The notes under the pieces: generated by a model
Seen by the model: the letters and a program-made list of their open reading frames with translations, nothing else
Told to the model about the DNA's origin: nothing
Databases searched by the model: none
Part shown: piece after piece, positions 10,194 to 26,532 of the stretch
Position numbering within the stretch: the first letter of the stretch is position 1
Layout: every line of letters begins with the position of its first letter
NCBI GenBank assembly: GCA_977018835.1
Contig: OZ361259.1
Location: 3,038,001-3,102,000 of the forward strand
DNA length: 64,000 nt
From: Minutocellus sp. GHC0000111
Lineage: Eukaryota
Reading direction: 5' to 3'
Position numbers and translations under genes: made by a program

Positions 10194-10412
10194 CTATAGG
10201 AAGTAGCGGTACGTTGTGACAAGTGACGGCGTCAGCGCTGCATCTCGACGTATGGCATCGGTGGCATCAGTGCTATCAACCCCTTTCAAAAAAATTGAGG
10301 ATGACGAGTTACGACGATGTGATAAAAAATAATAAGTGCAGCCAAACCGAGACGAGCTTACTTTGCACGTGCGTCCTTACTTAGATCCTCAAAGCTCGCT
10401 ACTACTGTAGCC

Positions 10413-13265
10413 ATGTTCAGCTCGCCAAAACCACGACCCTCCTTGGCCGATGCTCTCAAGCGTGAAGGAGTCTTCACGGACATTGCGCTTCAGGATGATG
10501 GTTCCATTAGCAGTAGCGGCCTAGTGACTCTGTCTTCTCCCAATAAGATTGATCTTGAGACCGGAGGCGGACCAACCAAAACCAAAAAGAAGAGCCGACG
10601 CAAACCCCAAGCTCAGCTTTTAGGCACACTGTGTGGAGTATTTCTACCCTGTCTCCAAAACATCCTAGGGGTGATTCTCTTCCTGCGCCTCCCTTGGATA
10701 ACTGCGCAAGCAGGGACTATCCACACCACTGCGATCGTCCTAGTATGTGTGGGGTCGACCTTCCTAACTGCACTATCTCTCTCTGCCATCGCTACTAATG
10801 GTTGTGTCATGGCTGGAGGGCCCTACTACGTGATATCTCGCACCCTTGGCCGTGAGGTCGGAGGAGCCATTGGAATTCTTTTTTTCCTGGGCACAAGCAT
10901 CGCTTGTTCCATGTATGTGATTGGATCAATAGAAGCAATCCAATCCGGATTTCAGCTCAGCGGACTCTTCCCCTTTGATACGCAAACGCTGGCATTGATC
11001 CTCATGATGCTCATTGCCGGCACCGTCGCCGTCGGTGTCAATTACGTCAACCGTGGTGCTGTCGTTTTCCTGGGAATCGTTCTCGTCTCTGTGTTCTGCC
11101 TATCGCTTGGTTGTATTCTCTTTGCCGCGGGGGTATTTCAAGGTGAGCTGGACGCCTCGGCACGAAAATTTGGCGACAACACGACACCGTTTTACGGCCT
11201 CGACACCGATACTGGTAAAGCCCCATCCTTCTTGAGCCTCTTGGCACTCTTTTATCCATCGGTGACGGGCATCATGGCGGGCAGCAACCGCTCGGCTGTC
11301 CTTGCCGATCCCTCACGATCGATTCCAACGGGTACCCTCTCTACAATCGGTGTGACGACGTTTCTCTATCTTGCAGTGGTCTGGTTATTTGGTTCGACAA
11401 TCTCTCGTGAAGCTCTCCTCGATGATAAACTCATTGTAACCAGTGTGGCATGGCCCGCGGGGATAGTTGTTCGTGTGGGGATAGTAATGAGTAGCGTTGG
11501 CGCTGCCCTCCAGTGTATGGCCGGTGCCCCAAGACTTCTGAGCGCAATTGCTGCTGATGATTGCATCGGATTTCTCAAATGCCTCAAGCCAGCAACAGTT
11601 TCGGCCAATCCGGTACGTGCCATTGTGGTCACGTGGATCATAGCTTCGATCCCTTGTCTCGCGGGGAGTTTGGATGCAATTACACCCCTCATCACATTAT
11701 TCTTCTTGGCCATGTACGCCGGAATCAATCTCAGCTGCTTCCTTCTCAGTGTTCTCAAGGCCCCGAGCTTTCGTCCAACCTTTCGTTGTTTTCATTGGTC
11801 GACGAGCCTCCTTGGTTGCTTGTGGTGCCTGGGGCTGGCTTTTACAATTGACTACGGCGTTGCTCTTGGCACCATTGCATTGACGGCTGTCTTATTTATG
11901 TACATTTTGCGAGGAAGGTCAGGCACCACAAACGGTGACTTTGGTGATATCGTCCAAGGAATTCGCTTTGCTTGGTGTCACAGCCTCTCGGGTCGAATGG
12001 TCGAGACCGACGCAGTCCACGCCAAGAACTACCGACCATATATTCTCGCTCTCATCAGGGCAGATCGTCACGGCATCTTGACAGCATCCAGTAGCACAGG
12101 CCTAATCCGACTGTGTGCGCAGCTCAACAAGGGTCGAGGCATGACAATGCTAATGTCCATTATGAATGGCTCCATCGATGATGCCGAGAGCAACGAAGCT
12201 TCTCTCAATGCCAAGATTGAGATGCAGAAGCAAATCGCCGTAGAGAAACTCCAGGCATTTCCTCCCGATGTCGTCTTGACATCCAACACTACCGAAGCCA
12301 TAGGGATCTTGGCTTGGCACGGAGGCATCGGACCGTTGCGTCCCAATACCGTCTTGATTTCGTGGCCAGAGGATTCGGTTGGAAATCCACAGGCGTGCAC
12401 TGACCTTACCACATCGCTACGCTACCTAGTCGAGGCCCGAAAGACGATATTGATGCTTAAAAGTGGCCCATCCTTTCCTGGAGACCTCGACCGTCTTGGA
12501 AAGCACGAGCGAAACGAAACCATTGACATTTGGTGGTTGTGCCACGACGGTGGACTTTTGCTTCTGTTGCCTTTTCTTCTATCGCGCAATGCGACCTGGC
12601 GTGGCACGAAGCTTCGTTTGTTTGCCGGTATCACGTCGCCCATTGTGAGCGATTTGGACCACTTCAGGGAAGCCATCGATCAGCATCTCAAGAAGGCCAG
12701 GATCGAGGCGGAGGTTCAGGTTGTGGATCTGTCACATCTACATAACGCTACGAGCGCCATTGAAGCCCCGCCAATTCATTCCGATGCGGACAGTGATTCC
12801 GTTGAGGGTACCCTTCTCTACCAGCTCTTAAGTCCCGAAAAGACGAATCTACCGTCTGCAAGGCCCACATCGCCCAATGTTTTGGACAAGAAGATGGAAT
12901 GCAGCTTGGATCGGTCTGACGATACCCGTAGCACCGAAACAGAACAACCCGAAACTCCTCGTCAGCGACTGACATTTGTTGACGACGATCACAGCACATC
13001 TGTTGACTGCGTCGTTGGGGCGGGCACGAGTACTGCCAGCGGAGTCTTTTCCTCGTCAGACCAGACCGCCGCCGTTTTGCTCAACAAGGCCATTCGCACC
13101 CACAGCGCCGATAGGGCTCGTCTCATTGTTACCAACCTGCCCCTGCTTCGCCCAGATACCAGCCCCGTGGCCTTTGTCAATTTCGTGGACACCATGACTA
13201 GGGATATTGACAATGTTTCGCTCGTCCGAGGATCTGGCAGTGAGGTCATCACCCAGTATGCTTGA
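10413..13265 (+). CDS. Cation-chloride cotransporter (SLC12/CCC family, KCC-like)
   Basis: GVFLPCLQNILGVILFLRLPW, GGPYYVISRTLG, FYPSVTGIMAGSNRS, GAPRLL, KNYRP, RPNTV, IDIWWLCHDGGLLLLLPFLL and a C-terminal LVRGSGSEVIT. Confidence 0.95.
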   Translation: MFSSPKPRPSLADALKREGVFTDIALQDDGSISSSGLVTLSSPNKIDLETGGGPTKTKKKSRRKPQAQLLGTLCGVFLPCLQNILGVILFLRLPWITAQAGTIHTTAIVLVCVGSTFLTALSLSAIATNGCVMAGGPYYVISRTLGREVGGAIGILFFLGTSIACSMYVIGSIEAIQSGFQLSGLFPFDTQTLALILMMLIAGTVAVGVNYVNRGAVVFLGIVLVSVFCLSLGCILFAAGVFQGELDASARKFGDNTTPFYGLDTDTGKAPSFLSLLALFYPSVTGIMAGSNRSAVLADPSRSIPTGTLSTIGVTTFLYLAVVWLFGSTISREALLDDKLIVTSVAWPAGIVVRVGIVMSSVGAALQCMAGAPRLLSAIAADDCIGFLKCLKPATVSANPVRAIVVTWIIASIPCLAGSLDAITPLITLFFLAMYAGINLSCFLLSVLKAPSFRPTFRCFHWSTSLLGCLWCLGLAFTIDYGVALGTIALTAVLFMYILRGRSGTTNGDFGDIVQGIRFAWCHSLSGRMVETDAVHAKNYRPYILALIRADRHGILTASSSTGLIRLCAQLNKGRGMTMLMSIMNGSIDDAESNEASLNAKIEMQKQIAVEKLQAFPPDVVLTSNTTEAIGILAWHGGIGPLRPNTVLISWPEDSVGNPQACTDLTTSLRYLVEARKTILMLKSGPSFPGDLDRLGKHERNETIDIWWLCHDGGLLLLLPFLLSRNATWRGTKLRLFAGITSPIVSDLDHFREAIDQHLKKARIEAEVQVVDLSHLHNATSAIEAPPIHSDADSDSVEGTLLYQLLSPEKTNLPSARPTSPNVLDKKMECSLDRSDDTRSTETEQPETPRQRLTFVDDDHSTSVDCVVGAGTSTASGVFSSSDQTAAVLLNKAIRTHSADRARLIVTNLPLLRPDTSPVAFVNFVDTMTRDIDNVSLVRGSGSEVITQYA

Positions 13266-14714: not shown

Positions 14715-16295
14715 TTATTGCTTGTCGCTACCATCATCGCCCTCCACGGCCTCGGCATCTTTTTCGGTGACATCGTATGCCTCCAAAATCTCGCTTCGCA
14801 GAACATTGGCGCCATCCTCATCTCCAGTCACCGCCAACAATTCTGCGAGACTGAACTTGGTCGCCACCACCTCGGGATGGTGCTTATCTCGCAATTCCGA
14901 TCGTACCTTCAATGCCGACTCGTATAATCGACGAGATTCGGCATACATGTCGTTCCGATCCAAATGAGCGGGGATGGAGACACAGGCCTCGGCGGCGGTA
15001 CCGATGACGTCGGCACGGCTCTTGAGAAATACAGCCAGATTCTGCGCAGCCGACGCCGCCGAGAGAGTTTGAATGTCCGATCCTGATCCTCCCCCCGTCG
15101 CGGCAGCCTTTTGCTGCTCAATGTGCTTGGAAAGCATCTTCTTCTCCCAGTTGCGCTTTCGCTTGGACACTGGTTTGTTCTTTTGTCTCTCGGCCTTTTG
15201 AGCATCAATTTTCTGATTGTGCGCCGATACGTTTGCCCTGCGACCACGAGGATTGGCCGTTGCCGTGTTGAGGGCCTATCGTAAATGATCCTCGGCAGCC
15301 TCCCACCCCCGACCGTCAACCTTGCCACCGCCGCTGCCTGTATCAGTGGCATCATCTGCCGATGATGAAGACTTTTCTTCCTCGCCGTTGGACTCTGTCC
15401 TGGCTTTCGCCTTCTCAGCCGCGGCAGCATGCCTCAGCAAAACCAGCGCCGCCAGCGCGCCGCCCAGATTGCTCCGGCTGGTCACCGTGTTGGGGTGGTC
15501 GTCTCCGAGCTCCACCACGCGTATGGCCAGAGCATCGTCAAAGTACCTGACGGCCGATTCGTTCAGCTCCAGCCGTTGCGCCACGTCCAAATCTTCGTCG
15601 ACGTGCGCCTGGGCCCGATCGAGGTTGCCCAGATTGTTCAGCGCGGCGGCGTAGCTGGCATGATCGGCGCCGACAATGTCCCCATACAGCTCCAGGGCCT
15701 TGGTGTAGTTGGTATGGGAATCGTCAAACTGACCCAAGGCCTTGTGCATCAGACCGATGTTGTTGTAGGCACTGGCCGTGGCGGGGTGGTTGTCCCCGAA
15801 CAGCTTCTGGCAGGCGTCGAGGAGCTGATGGGAGGTTTCCAGTGCCTCACTGTAAGCCGCGTGGCGATAATGCGTCCGAATGTGCGACTGCATTTCCAGG
15901 ATGCGCTCTTCGGCCTTTTGGGCAAAGGGGTTGTCGTCGTCTGCTTTTTTGTTGTTGTCGTTGGTTGTGTCGTTGGAGGAAGACGTCGGAGAAGAAGGAG
16001 ACGATGCTGACGTTTGGGTAATCTTGATCTCCTGGGAGAGTATCGACGTGCCTGAAGAATATACACGGATACTGACATGCTGATGACGATGACGACAACG
16101 ACGGTCATCTTTGGACTCAGAACCAGCAGCATGCGGTGATGAGGAGGAAGGGTACGAGTAGCAGTAATGACGAAGCTGAGGGGGGACATGGAGTGATAGT
16201 AATGATGACGGTGATTGCACATCGCCCGCATGTAAAAGTGCAGAGGATATAGAAGATTTACGTGCCGCCGCCGAGGCGGTGGCTGGTCTCCTCAT
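14715..16295 (-). CDS. TPR-repeat protein (kinesin-light-chain-type TPR) with an in-frame TAG at 15276-15278
   Basis: HPATASAYNNIGLMHKALGQF, HASYAAALNNLGNL, HPNTVTSRSNLG and HPEVVATKFSLAELL. The two track ORFs are in the same frame across the TAG (EDHLR*ALNTA). Confidence 0.85.
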
Positions 16296-16688
16296 GGTTG
16301 CTGCGGCTGGTAGATTGGGCGGGTTTGCAGTTTGTCGTTTGCAGCTCGAAATACGGATGGTAGAAGGACAGACGATCGTCTGGCTGTCAACCGTGACCGA
16401 AACCGAGAGTTGCAGAGTGTTCCCGGCGAAAGTCCCTGCGGCCTGATTCATTCAACTTGAAGCAACTGAGCGCCACGTCAAAGCCTCCGGTTTCTTTTCC
16501 TTGCTTGGTTTTGACTTTCTGCCGTCTGCTCAAAGACATTGGCTGAATATCAGTTGTAGATGTACTACGTACGTAGCTAGTATGATTTGGCGGCAGCAAC
16601 CTACACGTATTTTTTCACCCGGGCACCGATCAACCTGCCTCCTCTTTCCTCTCCGCTTCTCTGACCATCCCCTTGAAGCCCTCGAACG

Positions 16689-19600
16689 ATGGTCCCTCCT
16701 GCCGCTGATGCCGCTGAGCACGGCGGCGCCGCTACTTCGTCCCCTTCTTCTGCCCAGCCGCAGGAGCCTCCCAACAGCAACAACAATGGCACAACCAGCA
16801 GTGGGGGTGCTTCAGCATCATCAGCTTCAACCTCCAAGAGCAATCCAACTGAAACTACTGAAACTTCTACCGGAGAATCATCATCATCGTCGTCATCGTC
16901 GGACCCCTCCCCCTTCTCTTCCTACACCGCCAGCGCCGGATACAAGGGGGATTACGTGTCGGATTACGAGCTGCTGCTGACCGGGGAGAAGCCCAAGGCT
17001 AAGGCGGCCTCCACTTCCGATGCTACTTCTTCTTCCACGCCCTCGGTCTCGCAGGTCGTCGAAGGGATGCGCAAGACGGGAGGGCGGCCGGCCGATACCA
17101 AGCTGGTGCCCAACCTTGGCGGCAAGATGAAGGGCAAGGACAGCAATCAGAGGCACACATCGTCCAAGAAGGAACAGAAGGCGGCGGCCAAAAAGGTTGC
17201 ATTCCAGCAGCAACCATCGCCTTCACCAGCAGGAGCAGGAGCGGCCAAAGTCCAGGCGCGAGTGTCCTCGTCCGCCGAGGCCGGGAGGATCTTTTCCAAC
17301 GCCTCGGCGGCGGCCTCGGCCACCTCTGCCGCCGTCGATCCCACCGGCGCGGCGGCGGGAGCATCCTCGGCCGGCGCGTCGCCGAACACGCTGTTGGACC
17401 ATCACGCCGAATCCATCCTGCAGGTCGACGCGCACTTCCGCCGGGCGGCGGCGGCCGTTTGGATCGTCTACCCCACCTTCATCGCCATCTCGTATCGATT
17501 CTGCCCGCCCGACCTCGTCCAACCCCTGGTGGGCATCGAGATGAATGCCGCCGCCCTCGCCGCCATCCTACTCTTTGTCAGTGTCGTATCCATCATCCTC
17601 CCCCTGCTGTATCGAGGACGGCAGCGAGCTTTAAGTGGCGTCGTCATCGGTGCCCTCACGGTCCAGAGCGTGGCGTTCATTACCGACCTCCTCATGGCCA
17701 GCATTGCCGTGCCGGTGATGATCGATCCGGTCTTTGGCACGCGCGTCCATCTTCTGAGGTGGTGCGAGTGGACCCCGTTGGCGTTCCTCATGACCTTCCT
17801 CACCGAGGGAGTGGGTGTGCCCGACGTCCTGTCCAAACGGATGAAGGGCGGGTGGAAGGAAAGTCTCGGCAGGAAGAAGAAGGACGATGACTACAGGGAC
17901 GACAAAGACGACGACGACAAGGAGGAAGACGATGGCAAGTACGAGCCCGACATGTCCAAGTCCACCCACATCGTCGCCGCCTACACCAATGGTCTGGCCC
18001 AGGGCTTCTCGACGCTCTGCGGTCTCATCTTCCCCTTCTGTCCCGGCCTCAAATCCTGGACGTTCTTCATGGTGGTGTCGTGCCTGCTCTTCTTCGTCAT
18101 CTTCTACCGCCTCAAGTGCAAGATCAACAGCCACCGGAAGATGGCCATGGGATCGTCCGTCGACGAGATTGAGATCTACAACCGTTCCCTCTTAAGTCTC
18201 AAGCTTTTGGGCACCTGCACCTTCCTTTGGACCGTCCTGGTCTGCACGTACTTCTTCTCCACCGTCGGGCCGACGGTGTTTCCCAGCCTCGAGGACAAGG
18301 TTGACGTCGAAGCTCTGACCATGGTCGGCGAATGCACCATGGACGTCGTGGCCAAGGTCCTGTACATGTTCATCATCGTCGACGTACACGATCAGGTCTT
18401 CGATCAGAGCGGCCGTGCCGAGCGGAGGTTGGAGGAGCTCCGCCAGATGATGGCCGTGGTTTGGGACAACTCCAGCGACGTCATTGGCATTTCCGTCCGC
18501 AGCATCAACGGCAACGTTACCACCATGTTGAGTAAGTAGATCTATGAATGATTGGATGGTGTATGGTCCTGTGTCTGATCGGAAATGCGCCATTCGGTCA
18601 TCATGGCTTGCCATTGGAATTTTATGTATAATATCTAACCCTGCGCTCTCTACTACATTTATTTTCATTCCTTTCACGCACACCGCAGGTCCGACGTACC
18701 TAAAGATCTATCAGAAGCGCAAAGAAAAACTTACTGCCCCCAGCAAAGATTCCAAGCGGTATGGAAAGGATGGGCAGGGCAACGCACTGATCTTTGAGCT
18801 CGATGCCAAAGAATTTGGCCATAGCGAGGAGGGAGAAGAAGAGGCCAAGGTCAGTACCAAGGCGTCCCGCAGAGCATCCTACAAGGATGCCCAAGAAGCC
18901 AGCCCGACAGCATTCAAGGAGGCCAGCTCTAGATTTCTATCCAAGGGTGCAACCAAGGATGGAGCGGGCCGACGCGTGGAACCAAAGATTGTGTACAACA
19001 TCGAATTTGCCGCGTCCTCCTCGAAAAAGAAACGCAGGTCTTCTGTTTCGAGTGCTCCCGCTGGTAGCGACGATGATGACGACGGACAGAGGTCGGAACG
19101 GCGTCGTGCGTACGGCAACGTTACTGGCTATGCGGCGCCGGAGACGCCCGATATTCGTCCCGAAGAATTTTCGTCTGTGGCGGAGCTTGTGGTACGGGCT
19201 TGGGATCTTGACGCCACTGAAACCCTGCTCATGCAAGATCTCGTGCTTCTTCACCAAGCCGAAGAGCATATTATTCGGTGAGAGGCCAAGGTGACGAGGC
19301 TCGAGGAGAATGCCCTGGTTATTGTTGTGCGAGACATATCGGAACGTTTCCGACGGTTTGAAGCCGAAAAGAAGGTCATTCATGAGACCACAGCAAGGGA
19401 GAAGGATGCCGAGGCTAATCGCTTCACCCGGCACGAGGTGAAGAATGGTCTTCTTGCGGCTATTGGACTCTGCGATAGTCTCAGAGATACCCTCGTCGAT
19501 AAGAACTCTCTATCGAACAATCCCATCACTGGCGGCGAAGTAGTATCTAGCAACAACATGATCGCAACGGAAAAGCTTGGACAGCTCTTGTCTCTCCGAG

Positions 19601-21234
19601 GTAGTCTAGCAACACTTCAAAAGATGCCGGTGTCGAGTGGCGGCCACAATCCTGCCGACCTTGCAACTGATCTGGGCAGATGTCTCAGCGAGCTTGATAA
19701 GACCTTGCACGAGGTCCTTGACACGATCTTGGCCGAAGCCATGGCGCGCGATGTGATCCACGAAGTGTATGAGCCCAAGCTGGAAAAGGTCGACATCAAG
19801 GGAATTCTCTGCGGAACGAATCTCAATGTTTTCAAGGAATCTCGGCTCGAGCGCTTCCCATTTCTTACACATCCAAATCCACTGCCACAATTTGCCTTCG
19901 ATCCCCAACTACTCAAATACATCCACCGAAACGCAATATCCAATGGATGCAAGTACGGCAAGAAGGGCGGTCTTGTCCTTACTGAGCTGCACTACGATGC
20001 AAAGAAGGGCATGTTCCAGATGGATGTTGTTAATTTGCCCGGCGAACATCACGACAAGCTTGTAGCGATGGGAGATGCCGCCAGTGCCGCGGTCTTCTCG
20101 CCCCGGAAGCGTTTACATTCCGGATTCAGCGAGAGCAAGAGTAGGAGTGAGTTCATTGAGTCCCATTCTTCCGGCGATGGTGCATGGATTATGACCAAGT
20201 GTGCCAAGACACTCGGAGGAGAATGTTCCATCAAGTTTGAGTCGAATCGCACAGTCTTTAGTCTGCGATGTCCTATCGTTACCTTTGAGGATTCTGTCAA
20301 CAAGAACACCTCAATCCATCCCAGCAACTTCAAACTGCCCGACAACGTTTGGGGGATTGCCATAGATGACTCCAAAATCCAACGCAAATTACTTGATCGC
20401 TTCCTCCAACTTGCTGGCGTTCGAAAGGACCGATGCATCGTCCAGGGCGAGAATATGCAAGAAATTGAAAGTTTTGACGACTTCGTGGTAGATCACATTG
20501 AACAGTATCCCGATGACTATTTCGTCCTCATTGCCGACGAGAATCTCGACGTCGCGGACGACAGCATGTCGACGCATGTAACAATCTCCGGGTCCATGTG
20601 TATTGAAAACATCCGGCATCGCCTTCTCCCTGACCAAGAACGACGAATGCTTGCTCTGGTGCGATCTGCGAACGACTCATCTCGGGATATTGCGATTTAT
20701 AACTCAAGAGCACATGGCTTTCTTCCCAAGGCTCCGATCCAAAAACAGGGAGTTTTGGAAATGCTTGCTCCTGCGTGGGAGAAACGTTTCCCGCCTGGTG
20801 GTTTGGCCGACGAGGATGCTCACGTCAGCCCAAATATTCCAACACTCGTGGAGGATACCGGTACAGATAGCGAAGACGACCTTGAATTGCAAATCGACAT
20901 GGCGGAATTGCGAGCCGAGGTGGAAGAATTACACGCCATGTGCTCGGCTGATGATGACGTGCTCGCCGAAAAGTGGCCGTTGATTTGGGAGCGATTGCAT
21001 GCTCTCAAGGGCGATCTCAAATCTTTGCCCAATAACGGCCGAGCTTCGGCTGCGGTAGAAACTATCAGCTCTCTGCGCGGCTCGACCTTGCCAAATAACT
21101 TCAGGGGCAGGTGGATCACCATCCATGCTCTTGTCAAGAGCATCTGGGCATTAGCCTTCCAATTACTCCTAGTTTTGATTAAAACATGTATAAATATATC
21201 ACCAACAAAGGGAATACAGACAATGAGTTTATGA
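16689..21234 (+). CDS. Rhodopsin-PAS-histidine kinase-receiver-Hpt hybrid protein; exons 16689-18531 and 18689-21234; in-frame TGA at 19279-19281
   Basis: Eight hydrophobic helices with LRWCEWTPL and ECTMDVVAKV. Intron GTAAGT(18532)..GCAG(18688) is in frame. PAC end IVVRDISER, H-box RFTRHEVKNGL, N-box HRNAISNGCKYG, G-box SSGDGAW, receiver IAIDDS/LIADEN/RSAN/FLPK, Hpt-like LHALKGDL. Confidence 0.88.
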
Positions 21235-21348
21235 ATTACTTTTACATTTGCAAATTAGTTATGAATATCAATGTCAATACTTTCGATGGAAAAGTGGTAC
21301 AAGTGTGACGTAGTTAGCAGCTGGCATGGATTATTCTCCAAACAACAT

Positions 21349-23268
21349 CTAAGCATCGGGCCAACAAATGGCCACAGTAGCCATGCCGACGAAGAGGAAG
21401 GTGACAATTCCAACAGCGATCCAAATGCTCGGAGCGTCACCATCTTCAAGTTGGCGTCCACAGTAAAAGAGACCGCAGGGGTACGACCTACTATCGGCAA
21501 TCTCGCTCAGCACCCTCTTATACAAGTCATCGTCAACGTTCAGCACATAGCGGACATCAGGAAGGACATCGCGTTTCGAGGAACAGTGGTTGCAGTTCTT
21601 ACACGTGCAGTTACATGCCATTTCATCACCGAGGTCAAAACCGCGAAGATCCTGTGCGGTAGGATCAGTACAAAGGAGATGGTAGTCCTCGTACTGTTCA
21701 ATTTCATCCTCATCTTTTTGCTTGTACAATATTCCAGATTCTAGATCTGGGTCCATCGTCAAGCGGACGTTATCGATTGGCAGATGAAGCTGAATATCTC
21801 CGCTCTCTGTTATGCTCTTGAACAGTTTGCTCTTGCCAATATCGGAGATGTAAGAGGTAACACTCATATCTGAAACAAAGGAGAGGGCAGAATTGAACGA
21901 AGCCGCCGAAGTTGCTGAATCGATTCGCCGATGTCCAGGCTTGGGTCTGATTGCATTGCCGCCATCCAAGGACGATGTAAAATCATTGCGAGAAAACAGG
22001 TGATCCTCGCCCGAGACGTTGTCAGTAGAGCTCGTTCGAACTCTCGGCCTCGGGGGTAGATGTGGATTAGGATGAGGACTTGCCGGGGGACTGTCGCTGT
22101 CCACAAACGTCACACCGTATCCCTCCGCCGAGGCCGTTCGTGCTCTCGGCCGAGGAGGAAGGGGACTGCCGGGGCGGCTGCTATTCATACCGCTGTCAAA
22201 ATTACTCCCGTATCCTCCCAAAGAGGGCGACGGTGGGCGTCGAGAGTCATAGCTCGACCTTCGATTACTCGGTGGTCGCTGACCAGATGTTGTTAGAGGA
22301 CTTCCGATGGCGGCATTTGCAGCCGACGTGAGATTCTGAAAGGACAGTCTTTTTCTAAGTTCTGGAAACCTACCCGATGACGCCGTACTGGTAGCGCCAT
22401 AGCCACCCGCAGCATCCTTTATCAGCAATGATGATGACGATATCTGCCCATCGGTGGCCGACTGCGATCGTCGATGGCGACTCTGTTTGTTTGTGAGACC
22501 TATTCCAGATGATCGGATTGCCCGATTCTGCAACCTCTCGTGCGCTGCCACCATCTCATCGGTGGGTGAATAGGTCGACGGTGGAGATGTCTTGGGTGTC
22601 GCCGGAGAAATGGGCGGCAGGCTCCCACCCCCTCTGGGAGAGGGCAGGAGAGGGCCGTCCGAGGAGAACCCACGGCTCCGACGAGGTTCGCGGAGGATGC
22701 TGGTCGGTTCGCCGCCGACCAAACTGCTCCTGCCACCCGAGTTCGTCCGGGTGAGTGCTATCGGAGGGGGGACTCCCACTGACGCCGCTGCAGCCGCTGC
22801 CGCGGCGGCGGCAGCAGAACCGACCAGGGGCGCCATCTCATCACCGCCCTGACTGAAACTGGACCGATTCCGACGATGCGACCTTCGACCGCTGCCGCTA
22901 CTACCACCACGTCCGGCCATGGGGACAGGCGACATCCGTCTCGACACTTGCTGCTGCTGCAGGGGCGAAGGAGGAGCATCGTACACGCCGATACTGCGCG
23001 GTGGCTTTCTTGACTGTGGAGGGCTCGGCGTCACGGGCTGCGGACGGTGGACCGCACCGCTCAGAGACTGCACCGGATACTCGTATACTTGATGCGGATG
23101 CGGTGCTTGTGGATTCTGATATGAACCACCCTGAGGCGACCAACCGGTCTGCAGTGGTTGCGACTGCTGCTGATACTGCCCATCGTCGCCATAGCTGGGC
23201 ACCCTGCGGTGCGAACGCGGCGGGGATGGTAGACCATAAGACGTTGTTCCTCGCTGACTCGCCCTCAT
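21349..23268 (-). CDS. Hypothetical tail-anchored protein: S/P/R-rich N-terminus, Cys-rich domain, C-terminal TM helix
   Basis: 639-aa ORF with CNCTCKNCNHC and PCGLFYCG, ending SIWIAVGIVTFLFVGMATVAICWPDA. Confidence 0.75.
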   Translation of the reverse strand: MRASQRGTTSYGLPSPPRSHRRVPSYGDDGQYQQQSQPLQTGWSPQGGSYQNPQAPHPHQVYEYPVQSLSGAVHRPQPVTPSPPQSRKPPRSIGVYDAPPSPLQQQQVSRRMSPVPMAGRGGSSGSGRRSHRRNRSSFSQGGDEMAPLVGSAAAAAAAAAAASVGVPPPIALTRTNSGGRSSLVGGEPTSILREPRRSRGFSSDGPLLPSPRGGGSLPPISPATPKTSPPSTYSPTDEMVAAHERLQNRAIRSSGIGLTNKQSRHRRSQSATDGQISSSSLLIKDAAGGYGATSTASSGRFPELRKRLSFQNLTSAANAAIGSPLTTSGQRPPSNRRSSYDSRRPPSPSLGGYGSNFDSGMNSSRPGSPLPPRPRARTASAEGYGVTFVDSDSPPASPHPNPHLPPRPRVRTSSTDNVSGEDHLFSRNDFTSSLDGGNAIRPKPGHRRIDSATSAASFNSALSFVSDMSVTSYISDIGKSKLFKSITESGDIQLHLPIDNVRLTMDPDLESGILYKQKDEDEIEQYEDYHLLCTDPTAQDLRGFDLGDEMACNCTCKNCNHCSSKRDVLPDVRYVLNVDDDLYKRVLSEIADSRSYPCGLFYCGRQLEDGDAPSIWIAVGIVTFLFVGMATVAICWPDA

Positions 23269-23724
23269 GTTCTATAAATCTTTCTGCTGAGTGAAACTTT
23301 CAGAAAAAATGGCGCCAACCGAACCCGCGAAAGGAAAGTGCAGGGATCTACCTTATGTATGCCTACTTTTCCGAAACAATGTTACTCAACACATCATGCA
23401 TGTACTTTCGATTCGAATATAGTGGTACTCGGTCAACAGAGGGGGTAGATCTTCCAGCAACAAACAGCGATGGAGCAGGTGTGGTTGTTGGTTGGTGGGC
23501 AGTCGAACCCCTCATCACATCGCGCGCTCTCTCGCGGCTCTCACAAACTCACAAGCGGTTCGAGATTCCGCCTTGAACGGAAATGGGAGCGCAGTCTGAA
23601 GTCGAGTGAGTCATGCCAGGGTCATCGAAAGCAGCAGCACCAAAAGACCTCTGACCTTCAGACCTCTCACCTCTCACTTTTCGGACCAGCTCATTGAGGG
23701 TAGGAATCCTACAGCCGCCTAATA

Positions 23725-25258: not shown

Positions 25259-26038
25259 TTAGTTGATGTACCCAGAGTTGGCATACTCCTTGAGAGTCTG
25301 GAAGATGGGGAAGAAGAAGAACGGAGTCTCGTCGACGACGCCAACATTGCTGACGGCCTCCTGGATGGCGAAGGCAAAGATTGCAATCATGGCGAGACGG
25401 CCGTTCTTGATCTCGGCGGTCTCCATCCACTTCTTGCCGTCCTCGGACTTGGGATAAGCACCAAGGGGGTCGAAGCCAAGGTCGCCGGGACCGGCGTAGT
25501 CACCACCCTTGGAACGCATGATGCCAAAGGCATCGACGGCACCGGCGAGGGCGAGGCAGGCGACCCAGTAGGCGGGGTTGACCTTGCCAAGTCCACCGTT
25601 AAGGATCGAGGGGGCGCGGTCGGCGGCATCGACGACGGCGGGCATGTTGAGAGCGGCGGCAGTCTTCTTGTCGAAGACCTCGGAAAGAGGCCAGCCAGCG
25701 GCGGCGAGCATGGCGAGACGGGCATGCTTGACCTCGGCCTCACGGTAATTGAGGAGGTCCTCCTTGGTCTTGGCAAATCCAAGAGGATCGAAACCGACGT
25801 CACCGGCGAGAGTTCCATCGAGAGCAGCAGGGCGGGCCATGAAGGGCATGCTCTGGGACTTGGCAGGAAGGGAGGGAGTGGCAGGCTCCTCAATCATGAT
25901 GGGAGTCTCCTCGGCGGTGGCAGTGGGCTCCTCGGACATTCGAAGAGCGGTGACGGACGCAGCAGAGGAAGAAGCGGGGGCGAAGGCGCTGGCGGTACCG
26001 GCGAGGGCAGAGAAGGCGATGGCAAGGGAGAGCTTCAT
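25259..26038 (-). CDS. Fucoxanthin-chlorophyll a/c light-harvesting protein (Lhcr/Lhcz-like)
   Basis: Signal peptide plus ASAFAP motif, GDVGFDPLG, EAEVKHARLAMLA, GDLGFDPLG and AEIKNGRLAMIA. Confidence 0.96.
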   Translation of the reverse strand: MKLSLAIAFSALAGTASAFAPASSSAASVTALRMSEEPTATAEETPIMIEEPATPSLPAKSQSMPFMARPAALDGTLAGDVGFDPLGFAKTKEDLLNYREAEVKHARLAMLAAAGWPLSEVFDKKTAAALNMPAVVDAADRAPSILNGGLGKVNPAYWVACLALAGAVDAFGIMRSKGGDYAGPGDLGFDPLGAYPKSEDGKKWMETAEIKNGRLAMIAIFAFAIQEAVSNVGVVDETPFFFFPIFQTLKEYANSGYIN

Positions 26039-26532
26039 GGTTGCTATTGATGATGCTTCTTTCGATCGAATTGTGAGACAGTAGAGTAAGAATGCACGGC
26101 CAACTAGTGCAGTGTGATGGGTGGATGAGTCAGGAGATCCAGTCAGAGCCGAAGTTCATCGATCTTCCGGTGCGTCAGATAAGACATATTCCCATTTTCT
26201 AATTTGTTATCATTTGTATTAGGGGAGGTTTAGGCTTTTTACGTACTCTAGTACCGGTACGTACGTAGAACGCCCGCCACGCCTTTTGCGAAAGTCGGCC
26301 CTCCCTTCAGCGATCGATACTGGATCCCATTCAACTGACAGGTTTGCCTTGATCGCTGCGCCCTCAAGAACAAAGAGAAGACCAGTCCTGAAGTCGCTTC
26401 CAGGTCTGTTTGCAGCAAGCTTCGTCGTTCGTCTTTTGGCCCTGCGATATCTTGGCTGGCTCGCCAGAAAATCTATCTGGCACAATACGTGCTGCTTTTT
26501 GTTTGCAAAGTAGCCCCATCTCGATTCAATCA

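What the first reader, a model, noticed from the sequence alone, without database searches (positions are those of the whole stretch)
16689..21234. Self-contained rhodopsin phosphorelay in a diatom: 8-TM rhodopsin + PAS + HK + receiver + Hpt in one polypeptide
Seen in the sequence: eight TM segments; helix C RWCEW (17757-17771), with Glu at the bacteriorhodopsin D85 counterion position; a helix F Trp; and helix G DVVAK with an intact Schiff-base Lys (18354-18356). These are followed by a coiled coil, PAS/PAC, H-box His (19432-19434), HATPase N and G boxes, a receiver with DD/D/S/K residues, and a C-terminal LHALKG Hpt-like motif. Established: enzyme-rhodopsins have an extra TM0. Green-algal histidine kinase rhodopsins (HKR1, 2c-Cyclop) typically end in a nucleotidyl cyclase. 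The best-characterised diatom rhodopsins are proton pumps. Inference: this is a light sensor with a complete His-Asp-His relay and no cyclase output. I do not know of a characterised diatom example with this architecture.
Basis: partly seen in the sequence, partly recalled or inferred. Interest (0 to 1): 0.92.

Follow-up and report, generated by a model that had tools for sequence, protein, structure and literature searches.

The report
Broken copy of diatom rhodopsin kinase
This transcribed gene joins a predicted retinal-type light-sensor membrane domain to a predicted two-component signalling kinase and belongs to a large, poorly annotated diatom family that likely senses light, but this copy has a stop codon ahead of the kinase and so likely makes only the sensor half.

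Summary
The membrane domain folds as an 8-helix type-1 rhodopsin, best matching choanoflagellate Rh-PDE (Z 21.4). The helix-G Lys is kept in 76 of 77 relatives. Kinase and receiver folds are confirmed on a relative; PAS is supported; Hpt is motif-level only. 105 of 171 retrieved proteins carry the whole architecture, and all named ones are from diatoms. No member reaches Pfam's rhodopsin cut-off, and nine literature searches found no description. Earlier AI notes of this scan report the family in other genomes.

It stands in 7 of 8 runs laid, five of them spliced RNA. One run and the syntenic orthologue have a Cys codon, and 0 of 21 related loci have TGA. As written, this allele gives 811 residues with no kinase. 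Other damaging variants segregate at the locus (H-box His to Asp, an 83-nt frameshifting skip). Low dN/dS (0.044-0.048) dates the damage as recent.

Verdict: a real, probably light-sensing diatom family; this copy is most likely a recent nonsense allele. Retinal binding is untested.

The parts
16689..18531 (+). Exon 1: start codon, about 240 low-complexity Ser/Ala-rich residues, the 8-TM domain, coiled coil and first PAS strands
   Evidence: ORF; RNA contigs begin at 16627-16753
17394..18401 (+). 8-helix type-1 rhodopsin-fold domain (TM0 plus helices A-G, B-C beta hairpin, acidic/basic insert in the C-D loop)
   Evidence: Model pLDDT 88.7; VIA Z 21.4 to 7d7q (268 aligned, rmsd 3.8) and Z 19.5 to 7pl9, both covering TM0; Foldseek top hit 7d7q
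17757..17771 (+). Helix C RWCEW: Arg357, Glu360, Trp361 (bacteriorhodopsin R82, D85, W86 equivalents by motif count; numbering recalled)
   Evidence: R 74 of 77, E 72 of 77, W 72 of 77 relatives; aligns with RYAEW of Rh-PDE and RYMEW of bestrhodopsin
18228..18230 (+). Helix F Trp514 (W182 equivalent, recalled)
   Evidence: 77 of 77
18342..18356 (+). Helix G DVVAK: Asp552 and predicted Schiff-base Lys556
   Evidence: D/E 75 of 77, K 76 of 77; K 159 of 163; K 102 of 120 with 18 gaps
18405..18470 (+). Signalling helix / coiled coil after helix G
   Evidence: Helix 339-360 of the model
18532..18688 (+). Intron, 157 nt, GT..AG
   Evidence: Skipped in RNA contigs of X4, X5, X6; retained in X12
18426..19350 (+). 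PAS-like domain with a long low-complexity insert, split by the intron and interrupted by the stop
   Evidence: Strand/helix pattern 434-593 in the model of relative P0003; Foldseek hits to LOV/PAS-kinases; VIA 4i5s range 427-873; no Pfam PAS hit
19279..19281 (+). In-frame TGA at codon 812 (Cys codon in the other allele and in relatives)
   Evidence: Present in X1, X2, X4, X5, X6, X8, X10; TGC in X12; 20 Cys, 1 Thr, 0 TGA in 21 of 22 loci that cover it
19378..19725 (+). DHp helices with H-box RHEVKN, His863 at 19432-19434
   Evidence: H and E 77 of 77; His to Asp variant in X5 and X12
19873..20280 (+). HATPase domain: N-box Asn1033, atypical G1 (VxNLPG), G2 (GDGAW)
   Evidence: Pfam HATPase_c E 0.0027; P0003 model matches HK853 Z 16.4 and ETR1 catalytic domain Z 15.8; boxes nearly invariant
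20338..20799 (+). Receiver domain: DD, Asp1231, Ser1274, Lys1295
   Evidence: P0003 model vs CheY 6tg7 Z 14.7, rmsd 2.2, 129 of 130 aligned; hhalign to four E. coli receivers probability 70.6, E 3.9e-5 with the Asp in register; D 73 of 77
20899..21150 (+). Four-helix Hpt-like module, His1385 at 20998-21000
   Evidence: Four helices 1073-1154 in the P0003 model; His 65 of 77; hhalign to E. coli Hpt domains only E 0.052; no Pfam or PDB sequence support
21151..21153 (+). Ancestral stop position; TTA in the window (stop lost), TGA in X4, X8, X12; TAA in L001
17402..17484 (+). 83-nt stretch missing from an alternative form in X4 and X6; the skip shifts the frame after residue 237
   Evidence: Joint table, non-GT-AG ends; 372-residue product

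Best explanation
This gene belongs to a diatom family that likely works as a light-regulated phosphorelay receptor, but the allele in the window has a stop codon ahead of the kinase and is likely a recently broken copy. In intact members, retinal would bind the helix-G Lys of an 8-helix rhodopsin (fold predicted and residue conservation shown; binding inferred). Photoisomerisation would move helix G and the coiled coil, pass through the PAS domain and change autophosphorylation of the H-box His (inferred; direction unknown, light inhibits in green-algal HKRs). Phosphate would move to the receiver Asp, then likely to the C-terminal His, and leave to a separate receiver protein (inferred; the Hpt step is the weakest). 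In this allele, translation would end at codon 812, giving a membrane rhodopsin with most of a PAS domain and no kinase. The stop is shown in DNA and spliced RNA; its effect on the protein is inferred.
For: Fold: model pLDDT 88.7. Foldseek's top hit is Rh-PDE 7d7q and every listed row is a microbial rhodopsin. VIA ranks 1-36 are rhodopsins, led by 7d7q at Z 21.4, and the first non-rhodopsin scores 13.3. A sequence profile of 70 relatives independently hits bestrhodopsin (E 3.7e-7) and Rh-PDE (E 7.8e-6). Residues among 77 TM-bearing relatives (85 hits minus 8 channel fusions): Lys 76, D/E at the helix-G counterion 75, helix-C Glu 72, helix-F Trp 77, H-box His 77, N-box Asn 77, receiver Asp 73, receiver Lys 75, terminal His 65. 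Full architecture in 105 of 171 proteins; 431 clusters at 50% identity match the TM profile at E<=0.001. Stop: in 7 of 8 runs from 3 of 4 studies; Cys in the syntenic orthologue L001 and TGA in 0 of 21 loci; the gene's other 19 Cys codons are TGY; no Rfam match downstream at E<=10; the next in-frame ATG (19558) lies beyond the H-box. Recency: dN/dS against L001 is 0.044 in the kinase and 0.048 in receiver-Hpt, with 11 window-specific against 21 L001-specific changes there. Further damaging variants: His863Asp, Leu869Phe, stop loss, 83-nt skip.
Against: No experiment shows retinal binding or kinase activity. The pocket departs from textbook rhodopsins by motif count: Leu at the T89 position (64 of 77), and no Tyr-Pro after the helix-F Trp (reference residues recalled). 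I could not inspect the Lys side chain in the model. No member reaches Pfam's Bac_rhodopsin cut-off (best E 0.0012 in 35 proteins; 3 of 18 weak). The G1 box has Asn where Asp is usual, and the H-box gave no significant hhalign match to E. coli DHp domains (E 0.12). Hpt is unsupported by four searches. The stop-bearing mRNA is assembled in all 5 RNA runs, so it is not visibly removed by decay, though contigs cannot give levels. Contig variants are unphased, so an intact allele may exist in the species. The excess of amino-acid variants after the stop (5 of 9 against 3 of 12 before it, my tally) is small. X1 and X2 may be the window's source.
Confidence: 0.63

Rival explanations
1. The family keeps a rhodopsin fold but senses something other than light (a lipid or small ligand, membrane tension, or input through the PAS domain), and the Lys and acidic residues form a buried ion pair.
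For: Atypical pocket at the T89, Y185 and P186 positions; 14-16% identity to solved rhodopsins; no experimental data.
Against: Lys, both counterions, Arg and both Trp are kept across proteins only 24-66% identical in this domain, and also in the cyclase-PDE fusions. Non-retinal rhodopsin-fold proteins usually lose the Lys (recalled).
Confidence: 0.14
2. The TGA is read through (selenocysteine or leaky Cys/Trp insertion), so the window allele still makes some full-length receptor.
For: It replaces a Cys codon; it is the common form in these runs (7 of 8) and is present in spliced RNA; the downstream frame is open and under past purifying selection.
Against: 0 of 21 related loci use TGA there; the Cys is only 52 of 77 conserved; no Rfam hit; the only SECIS-like pattern folds at -5.8 kcal/mol and lies beyond the mapped RNA end; TGA serves as the stop in the other allele at 21151; damaging variants segregate downstream.
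Confidence: 0.07
3. The 811-residue rhodopsin-PAS product is kept because it pairs with an intact paralogue and tunes or damps its signal, as catalytically silent NeoR does in fungal heterodimers.
For: The TGA form is common and transcribed; the family is multi-copy in other diatoms (tandem locus tags; tree); heterodimers of enzyme rhodopsins are known (PMC10622942, passages).
Against: The stop cuts inside the PAS fold; an 83-nt frameshifting form that removes the rhodopsin also occurs; no paralogue in the window and no genome to search.
Confidence: 0.08
4. The family binds retinal, but its kinase module is a pseudokinase or phosphatase, or the terminal His is structural, so the relay is His-Asp only or runs in reverse.
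For: Atypical G1 box and hybrid H-box; Hpt not detected by searches.
Against: His, Asn, Gly boxes, Asp and Lys are nearly invariant; the receiver-Hpt pair is duplicated as a unit with residues intact in channel proteins.
Confidence: 0.07
5. The stop is an assembly or sequencing error and the gene is intact.
For: One run (X12) has TGC.
Against: TGA in 7 of 8 runs, including five RNA runs from two studies other than the possible source.
Confidence: 0.01

Closest known systems
Histidine kinase rhodopsins of green algae (Chlamydomonas HKR1, 2c-Cyclop, Ostreococcus Ot-HKR)
   Same: 8-TM rhodopsin, histidine kinase and receiver in one chain; some lack a cyclase (PMC12558739, section 14 part 2).
   Different: Here a PAS-like domain precedes the kinase and a four-helix His module follows the receiver. 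HKRs are not reported from diatoms in the passages read. Whether the rhodopsin shares descent with HKRs could not be tested, since no HKR sequence or structure appeared in any hit list.
Rhodopsin phosphodiesterase of Salpingoeca rosetta (PDB 7cj3, 7d7q)
   Same: Best structural match including TM0 and linker (Z 21.4); sequence similarity around helix B-C (E 7.8e-6).
   Different: 14% identity; output is a kinase relay, not a PDE, in most members.
Bestrhodopsin (PDB 7pl9)
   Same: Best profile hit (E 3.7e-7); 8-TM match Z 19.5.
   Different: No bestrophin channel; the second counterion position of the far-red triad (PMC10622942, passages) is Leu here by motif count, so far-red absorption is not expected on that ground.
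Unorthodox bacterial sensor kinases (E. coli ArcB, BarA, TorS, EvgS)
   Same: Sensor, kinase, receiver, Hpt order; receiver alignable with the Asp in register.
   Different: Sensor is a rhodopsin fold; DHp and Hpt are too diverged for significant profile matches.
Diatom xanthorhodopsin pumps and heliorhodopsins
   Same: Microbial rhodopsin folds in diatoms (PMC10627834, PMC8413402, passages).
   Different: Those are 7-TM stand-alone proteins (recalled); this is an 8-TM fusion with signalling domains.

Membership tests
Type-1 microbial rhodopsin | Seven-helix rhodopsin fold | tested here: met
Type-1 microbial rhodopsin | Lys in helix G with D/E four residues before, and Arg..Glu-Trp in helix C | tested here: met
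Type-1 microbial rhodopsin | Reaches the Pfam Bac_rhodopsin cut-off | tested here: not met
   No hit for the window; best relative 18.8 bits against 24.6. The family is diverged; this lowers only the profile-based label.
Type-1 microbial rhodopsin | Binds retinal as a Schiff base and photocycles | not testable with these tools
   Needs expression and spectroscopy
Enzyme rhodopsin (8-TM) | Extra N-terminal helix TM0 and a C-terminal enzyme | tested here: met
   Alignments to 7d7q and 7pl9 cover model residues 11-350 and 13-342, while 7-TM proteins start near 40-49; kinase fold in relatives
Histidine kinase rhodopsin (HKR/2c-Cyclop) | Rhodopsin, kinase and receiver in one translated chain | tested here: not met
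   For this allele: stop at codon 812. Met in 105 of 171 relatives.
Histidine kinase rhodopsin (HKR/2c-Cyclop) | Rhodopsin domain groups with green-algal HKRs | not tested
   No HKR sequences were available from the tools; the tree holds family members only
Histidine kinase rhodopsin (HKR/2c-Cyclop) | Light-regulated autophosphorylation | not testable with these tools
   Needs a kinase assay
Hybrid histidine kinase | DHp with H-box His, HATPase with N and G boxes | tested here: met
   Sequence present in the window; fold shown on relative P0003; G1 box atypical
Hybrid histidine kinase | Receiver fold with DD, D, S/T, K | tested here: met
Unorthodox kinase (with Hpt) | Four-helix Hpt domain with HxLKG His | tested here: inconclusive
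   Motif, position and four predicted helices fit; hhalign E 0.052, no Pfam, PDB-sequence or Atlas hit; not folded alone
PAS domain | PAS fold between sensor and kinase | tested here: inconclusive
   Secondary structure and whole-chain matches to LOV/PAS kinases fit; not folded alone; no Pfam hit
Selenoprotein | In-frame TGA conserved among relatives | tested here: not met
   0 of 21 loci
Selenoprotein | SECIS element in the 3' UTR | tested here: inconclusive
   No Rfam match at E<=10; no stable SECIS-like fold; diverged forms can be missed

The most novel reading that the evidence does not exclude
Diatoms have their own large family of enzyme rhodopsins, built from Rh-PDE/bestrhodopsin-like stock, that runs a complete light-driven His-Asp-His relay and hands the phosphate to kinase-less two-pore-domain K+ channels carrying twin receiver-Hpt modules of the same family. 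That would give diatoms light control of membrane potential without a channelrhodopsin. A branch of the family has the same rhodopsin inserted inside the PDE domain of a cyclase-PDE protein. This lineage is losing one such receptor now, through several independent null variants.
Probability: 0.15. Interest if true: 0.93.

Novelty: new variant of a known kind. Interest (0 to 1): 0.72.

Why it matters
Diatom photoreceptor lists in the papers read name cryptochromes, aureochromes, phytochromes, heliorhodopsins and pump rhodopsins, and surveys find rhodopsins with profile searches that this family slips under. A multi-copy sensory rhodopsin-kinase family across centric and pennate diatoms would add a new light input to a major group of primary producers. 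It offers a testable candidate for blue-green light responses such as the partial green-light support of mating in Seminavis (PMC8413402, passages), and a new scaffold for optogenetics. This window is a poor copy to work on, but its null variants could serve as natural knock-outs.

Tried and rejected
Pfam on the three window segments found no rhodopsin, PAS, HisKA, receiver or Hpt domain. Profile searches of the receiver and Hpt alignments against PDB sequences gave nothing significant. The ESM Atlas gave Bac_rhodopsin clusters at 0.89-0.90 with recognition below its threshold for the TM domain, a lead only, and nothing for the Hpt module. No genome is held, so paralogues in this organism could not be sought; the window has none. 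A tree against HKR, RhGC and Rh-PDE could not be built; the tree of 160 TM domains is family-only, quick mode and midpoint-rooted. A reassigned genetic code was rejected: 19 Cys codons are TGY, and TGA ends the other allele. Single-base deletions in X12 at 16803, 16909 and 17600 lie in homopolymer runs and were set aside as probable errors. The 66 of 171 proteins without the full architecture are channel fusions (8), cyclase/PDE fusions (2), one with a PAS part missed, or C-terminally short forms; P0086 is shown to be cut at an intron and the rest were not checked, so they are not counted as natural short forms. Loose ends at 16898 and 17009 were not followed. Nine paper searches found no description of the family. 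The bestrhodopsin paper (10.1038/s41594-022-00783-x) is not held; its phylogeny, subscription reviews and the supplements of PMC8017926 and PMC13436692, none of which I read, may list these sequences.
Full report
Gene structure. The gene starts at 16689 and has one intron, 18532-18688, which is spliced out in RNA contigs of runs X4, X5 and X6. Joining the exons gives 1462 codons before the last stop, with a second stop at codon 812 (TGA, 19279-19281). One RNA contig runs from 17485 to 21002 across the intron, which argues against separate transcripts, although a contig is not a molecule. The organism is inferred to be a diatom: no genome is held, all named relatives are diatoms, and the window carries an LHC gene with a diatom-type targeting motif (recalled).

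Membrane domain. Pfam sees nothing in exon 1. AlphaFold with 72 sequences gives eight long helices, a B-C hairpin and a following signalling helix at pLDDT 88.7. Foldseek ranks Salpingoeca Rh-PDE first. VIA-align over 48,161 chains puts rhodopsins in ranks 1-36, led by Rh-PDE (Z 21.4, rmsd 3.8, 268 aligned); the first five rows span Z 21.4-19.5, and only Rh-PDE and bestrhodopsin cover the extra helix. A sequence profile independently hits bestrhodopsin and Rh-PDE and aligns RWCEW with RYMEW and RYAEW. Among 77 TM-bearing relatives the helix-G Lys is kept in 76, D/E four residues before it in 75, helix-C Arg in 74, Glu in 72, and the helix-F Trp in 77. Against this, by motif count with recalled bacteriorhodopsin numbering, the T89 position is Leu and the Y185-P186 pair is absent. 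Retinal binding is therefore likely but not shown, and colour cannot be predicted.

Signalling domains. A full-length model of relative P0003 (pLDDT 78.9, pTM 0.49, so domain packing is unreliable) shows TM, coiled coil, PAS-like, DHp, ATPase, receiver and four terminal helices. It matches LOV/PAS histidine kinases by Foldseek, and HK853 (Z 16.4), the ETR1 catalytic domain (Z 15.8) and CheY (Z 14.7, rmsd 2.2) by VIA. The family receiver profile aligns with four E. coli receivers at E 3.9e-5 with the Asp in register, while reversed and unrelated controls do not. The terminal module aligns its His with ArcB His717 but only at E 0.052, and three other searches gave nothing. It stays Hpt-like.

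Family. Two searches for longer relatives and one profile search returned 171 proteins; 105 have the whole architecture by family profiles. A full HMMER scan finds 431 clusters at 50% identity with E<=0.001, 192 at E<=1e-30; only the best 150 were listed, so the weak tail is unseen. Named members come from Thalassiosira, Skeletonema, Cyclotella, Cyclostephanos, Conticribra, Detonula, Seminavis, Cylindrotheca, Epithemia and Fistulifera, labelled hypothetical, unknown or histidine kinase. Several species have more than one copy.

The stop. I laid 8 of the 24 listed runs. Seven carry TGA: X1 and X2 (possibly the source), and RNA runs X4, X6, X5, X8 and X10 from two further studies. X12 carries TGC. 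In 21 of 22 related loci that cover the codon, 20 have Cys, one has Thr and none has TGA (three pairs of these loci look like duplicates). The syntenic orthologue L001 has TGC and stops where X4, X8 and X12 stop, 27 codons before the window's end. There is no SECIS evidence, and re-initiation would miss the H-box. Other variants damage the gene independently: His863Asp (X5, X12), Leu869Phe (X5), and an 83-nt non-canonical skip (X4, X6) that shifts the frame before TM0; an X12 contig also begins at that junction, which hints that it is genomic. Against L001, dN/dS is 0.044 in the kinase and 0.048 in receiver-Hpt, with no excess of window-specific changes, so the relay was functional until recently. 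The simplest reading is recent relaxation of selection. The variants are unphased, so an intact allele is not excluded. RNA holders are labelled sponge and marine metagenomes; a link between habitat and gene loss is speculation.

Mechanism. Shown: sequence motifs, conservation, splicing, the stop. Predicted: folds. Inferred: retinal binding, helix-G to coiled-coil to PAS coupling, His-Asp-His transfer and an external output. Eight diatom proteins join two K+ pore motifs to two receiver-Hpt modules (the second cut short in one) of this same family and have no kinase. They need an outside kinase and are the obvious candidate output, but nothing here shows the link.

Comparison with the literature. 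It works like a histidine kinase rhodopsin and an unorthodox sensor kinase; membership of the HKR clade is untested, and this allele fails the one-chain test. A 2025 review places enzyme rhodopsins in fungi, green algae and choanoflagellates (PMC12558739: passages and section 14 part 2). I saw passages only of PMC6324907, PMC9601134, PMC13436692, PMC8017926, PMC10622942, PMC10962995, PMC12557545, PMC10627834, PMC8413402 and 10.64898/2026.09.29.755320; none described a diatom rhodopsin-kinase. No supplements were read, and the bestrhodopsin paper is not held. Five earlier AI notes of this scan report the same family in other genomes, two of them calling their copy intact; I had reached the reading before seeing them, and they are not independent evidence.

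Verdict. The family is real, large and apparently undescribed in the searchable literature: a new variant of enzyme rhodopsin. The claim of one self-contained polypeptide does not hold for this allele. Interest 0.72.

Noticed in passing
P0068, P0070-P0073, P0076 (Thalassiosira pseudonana), P0079, P0083: Two K+ pore motifs (TVGYG, TIGYG) followed by receiver-Hpt-receiver-Hpt modules of this family (second module cut short in P0083), no kinase, phospho-residues largely intact.
   Followed up: partly
P0134 (Seminavis robusta), P0140, P0261: The same 8-TM rhodopsin follows the first half of a PDE domain; in P0134 it sits inside the PDE domain of a cyclase-PDE protein. The Lys is kept in P0134 and P0140, which nest inside the kinase family in the TM tree.
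   Followed up: partly
window 17402-17484: 83-nt non-canonical skip at higher depth than the unskipped form in X4 and X6 (one study); probably a genomic deletion allele, though a library artefact is not excluded.
   Followed up: partly
window 21151-21350: Convergent neighbour (21349-23271, minus strand, no Pfam family) has a poly-T loose end at 21217, so its 3' end abuts or overlaps this gene's; the window's extended frame to 21234 runs past the mapped RNA end at about 21218.
   Followed up: no
window 15276-16451 (-), 10326-13265 (+), 25259-26155 (-): Neighbours: a TPR protein, an SLC12 cation-chloride cotransporter and an LHC protein. The TPR gene and the downstream gene are syntenic in L001.
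   Followed up: partly
P0231, P0232, P0254, P0262: Family members with 340-650 residues before the rhodopsin and no Pfam hit; they end after the PAS part, possibly cut at introns.
   Followed up: no
window 16898 and 17009: Identical loose ends in RNA contigs of X4, X5 and X6; probably other transcripts sharing low-complexity words.
   Followed up: no
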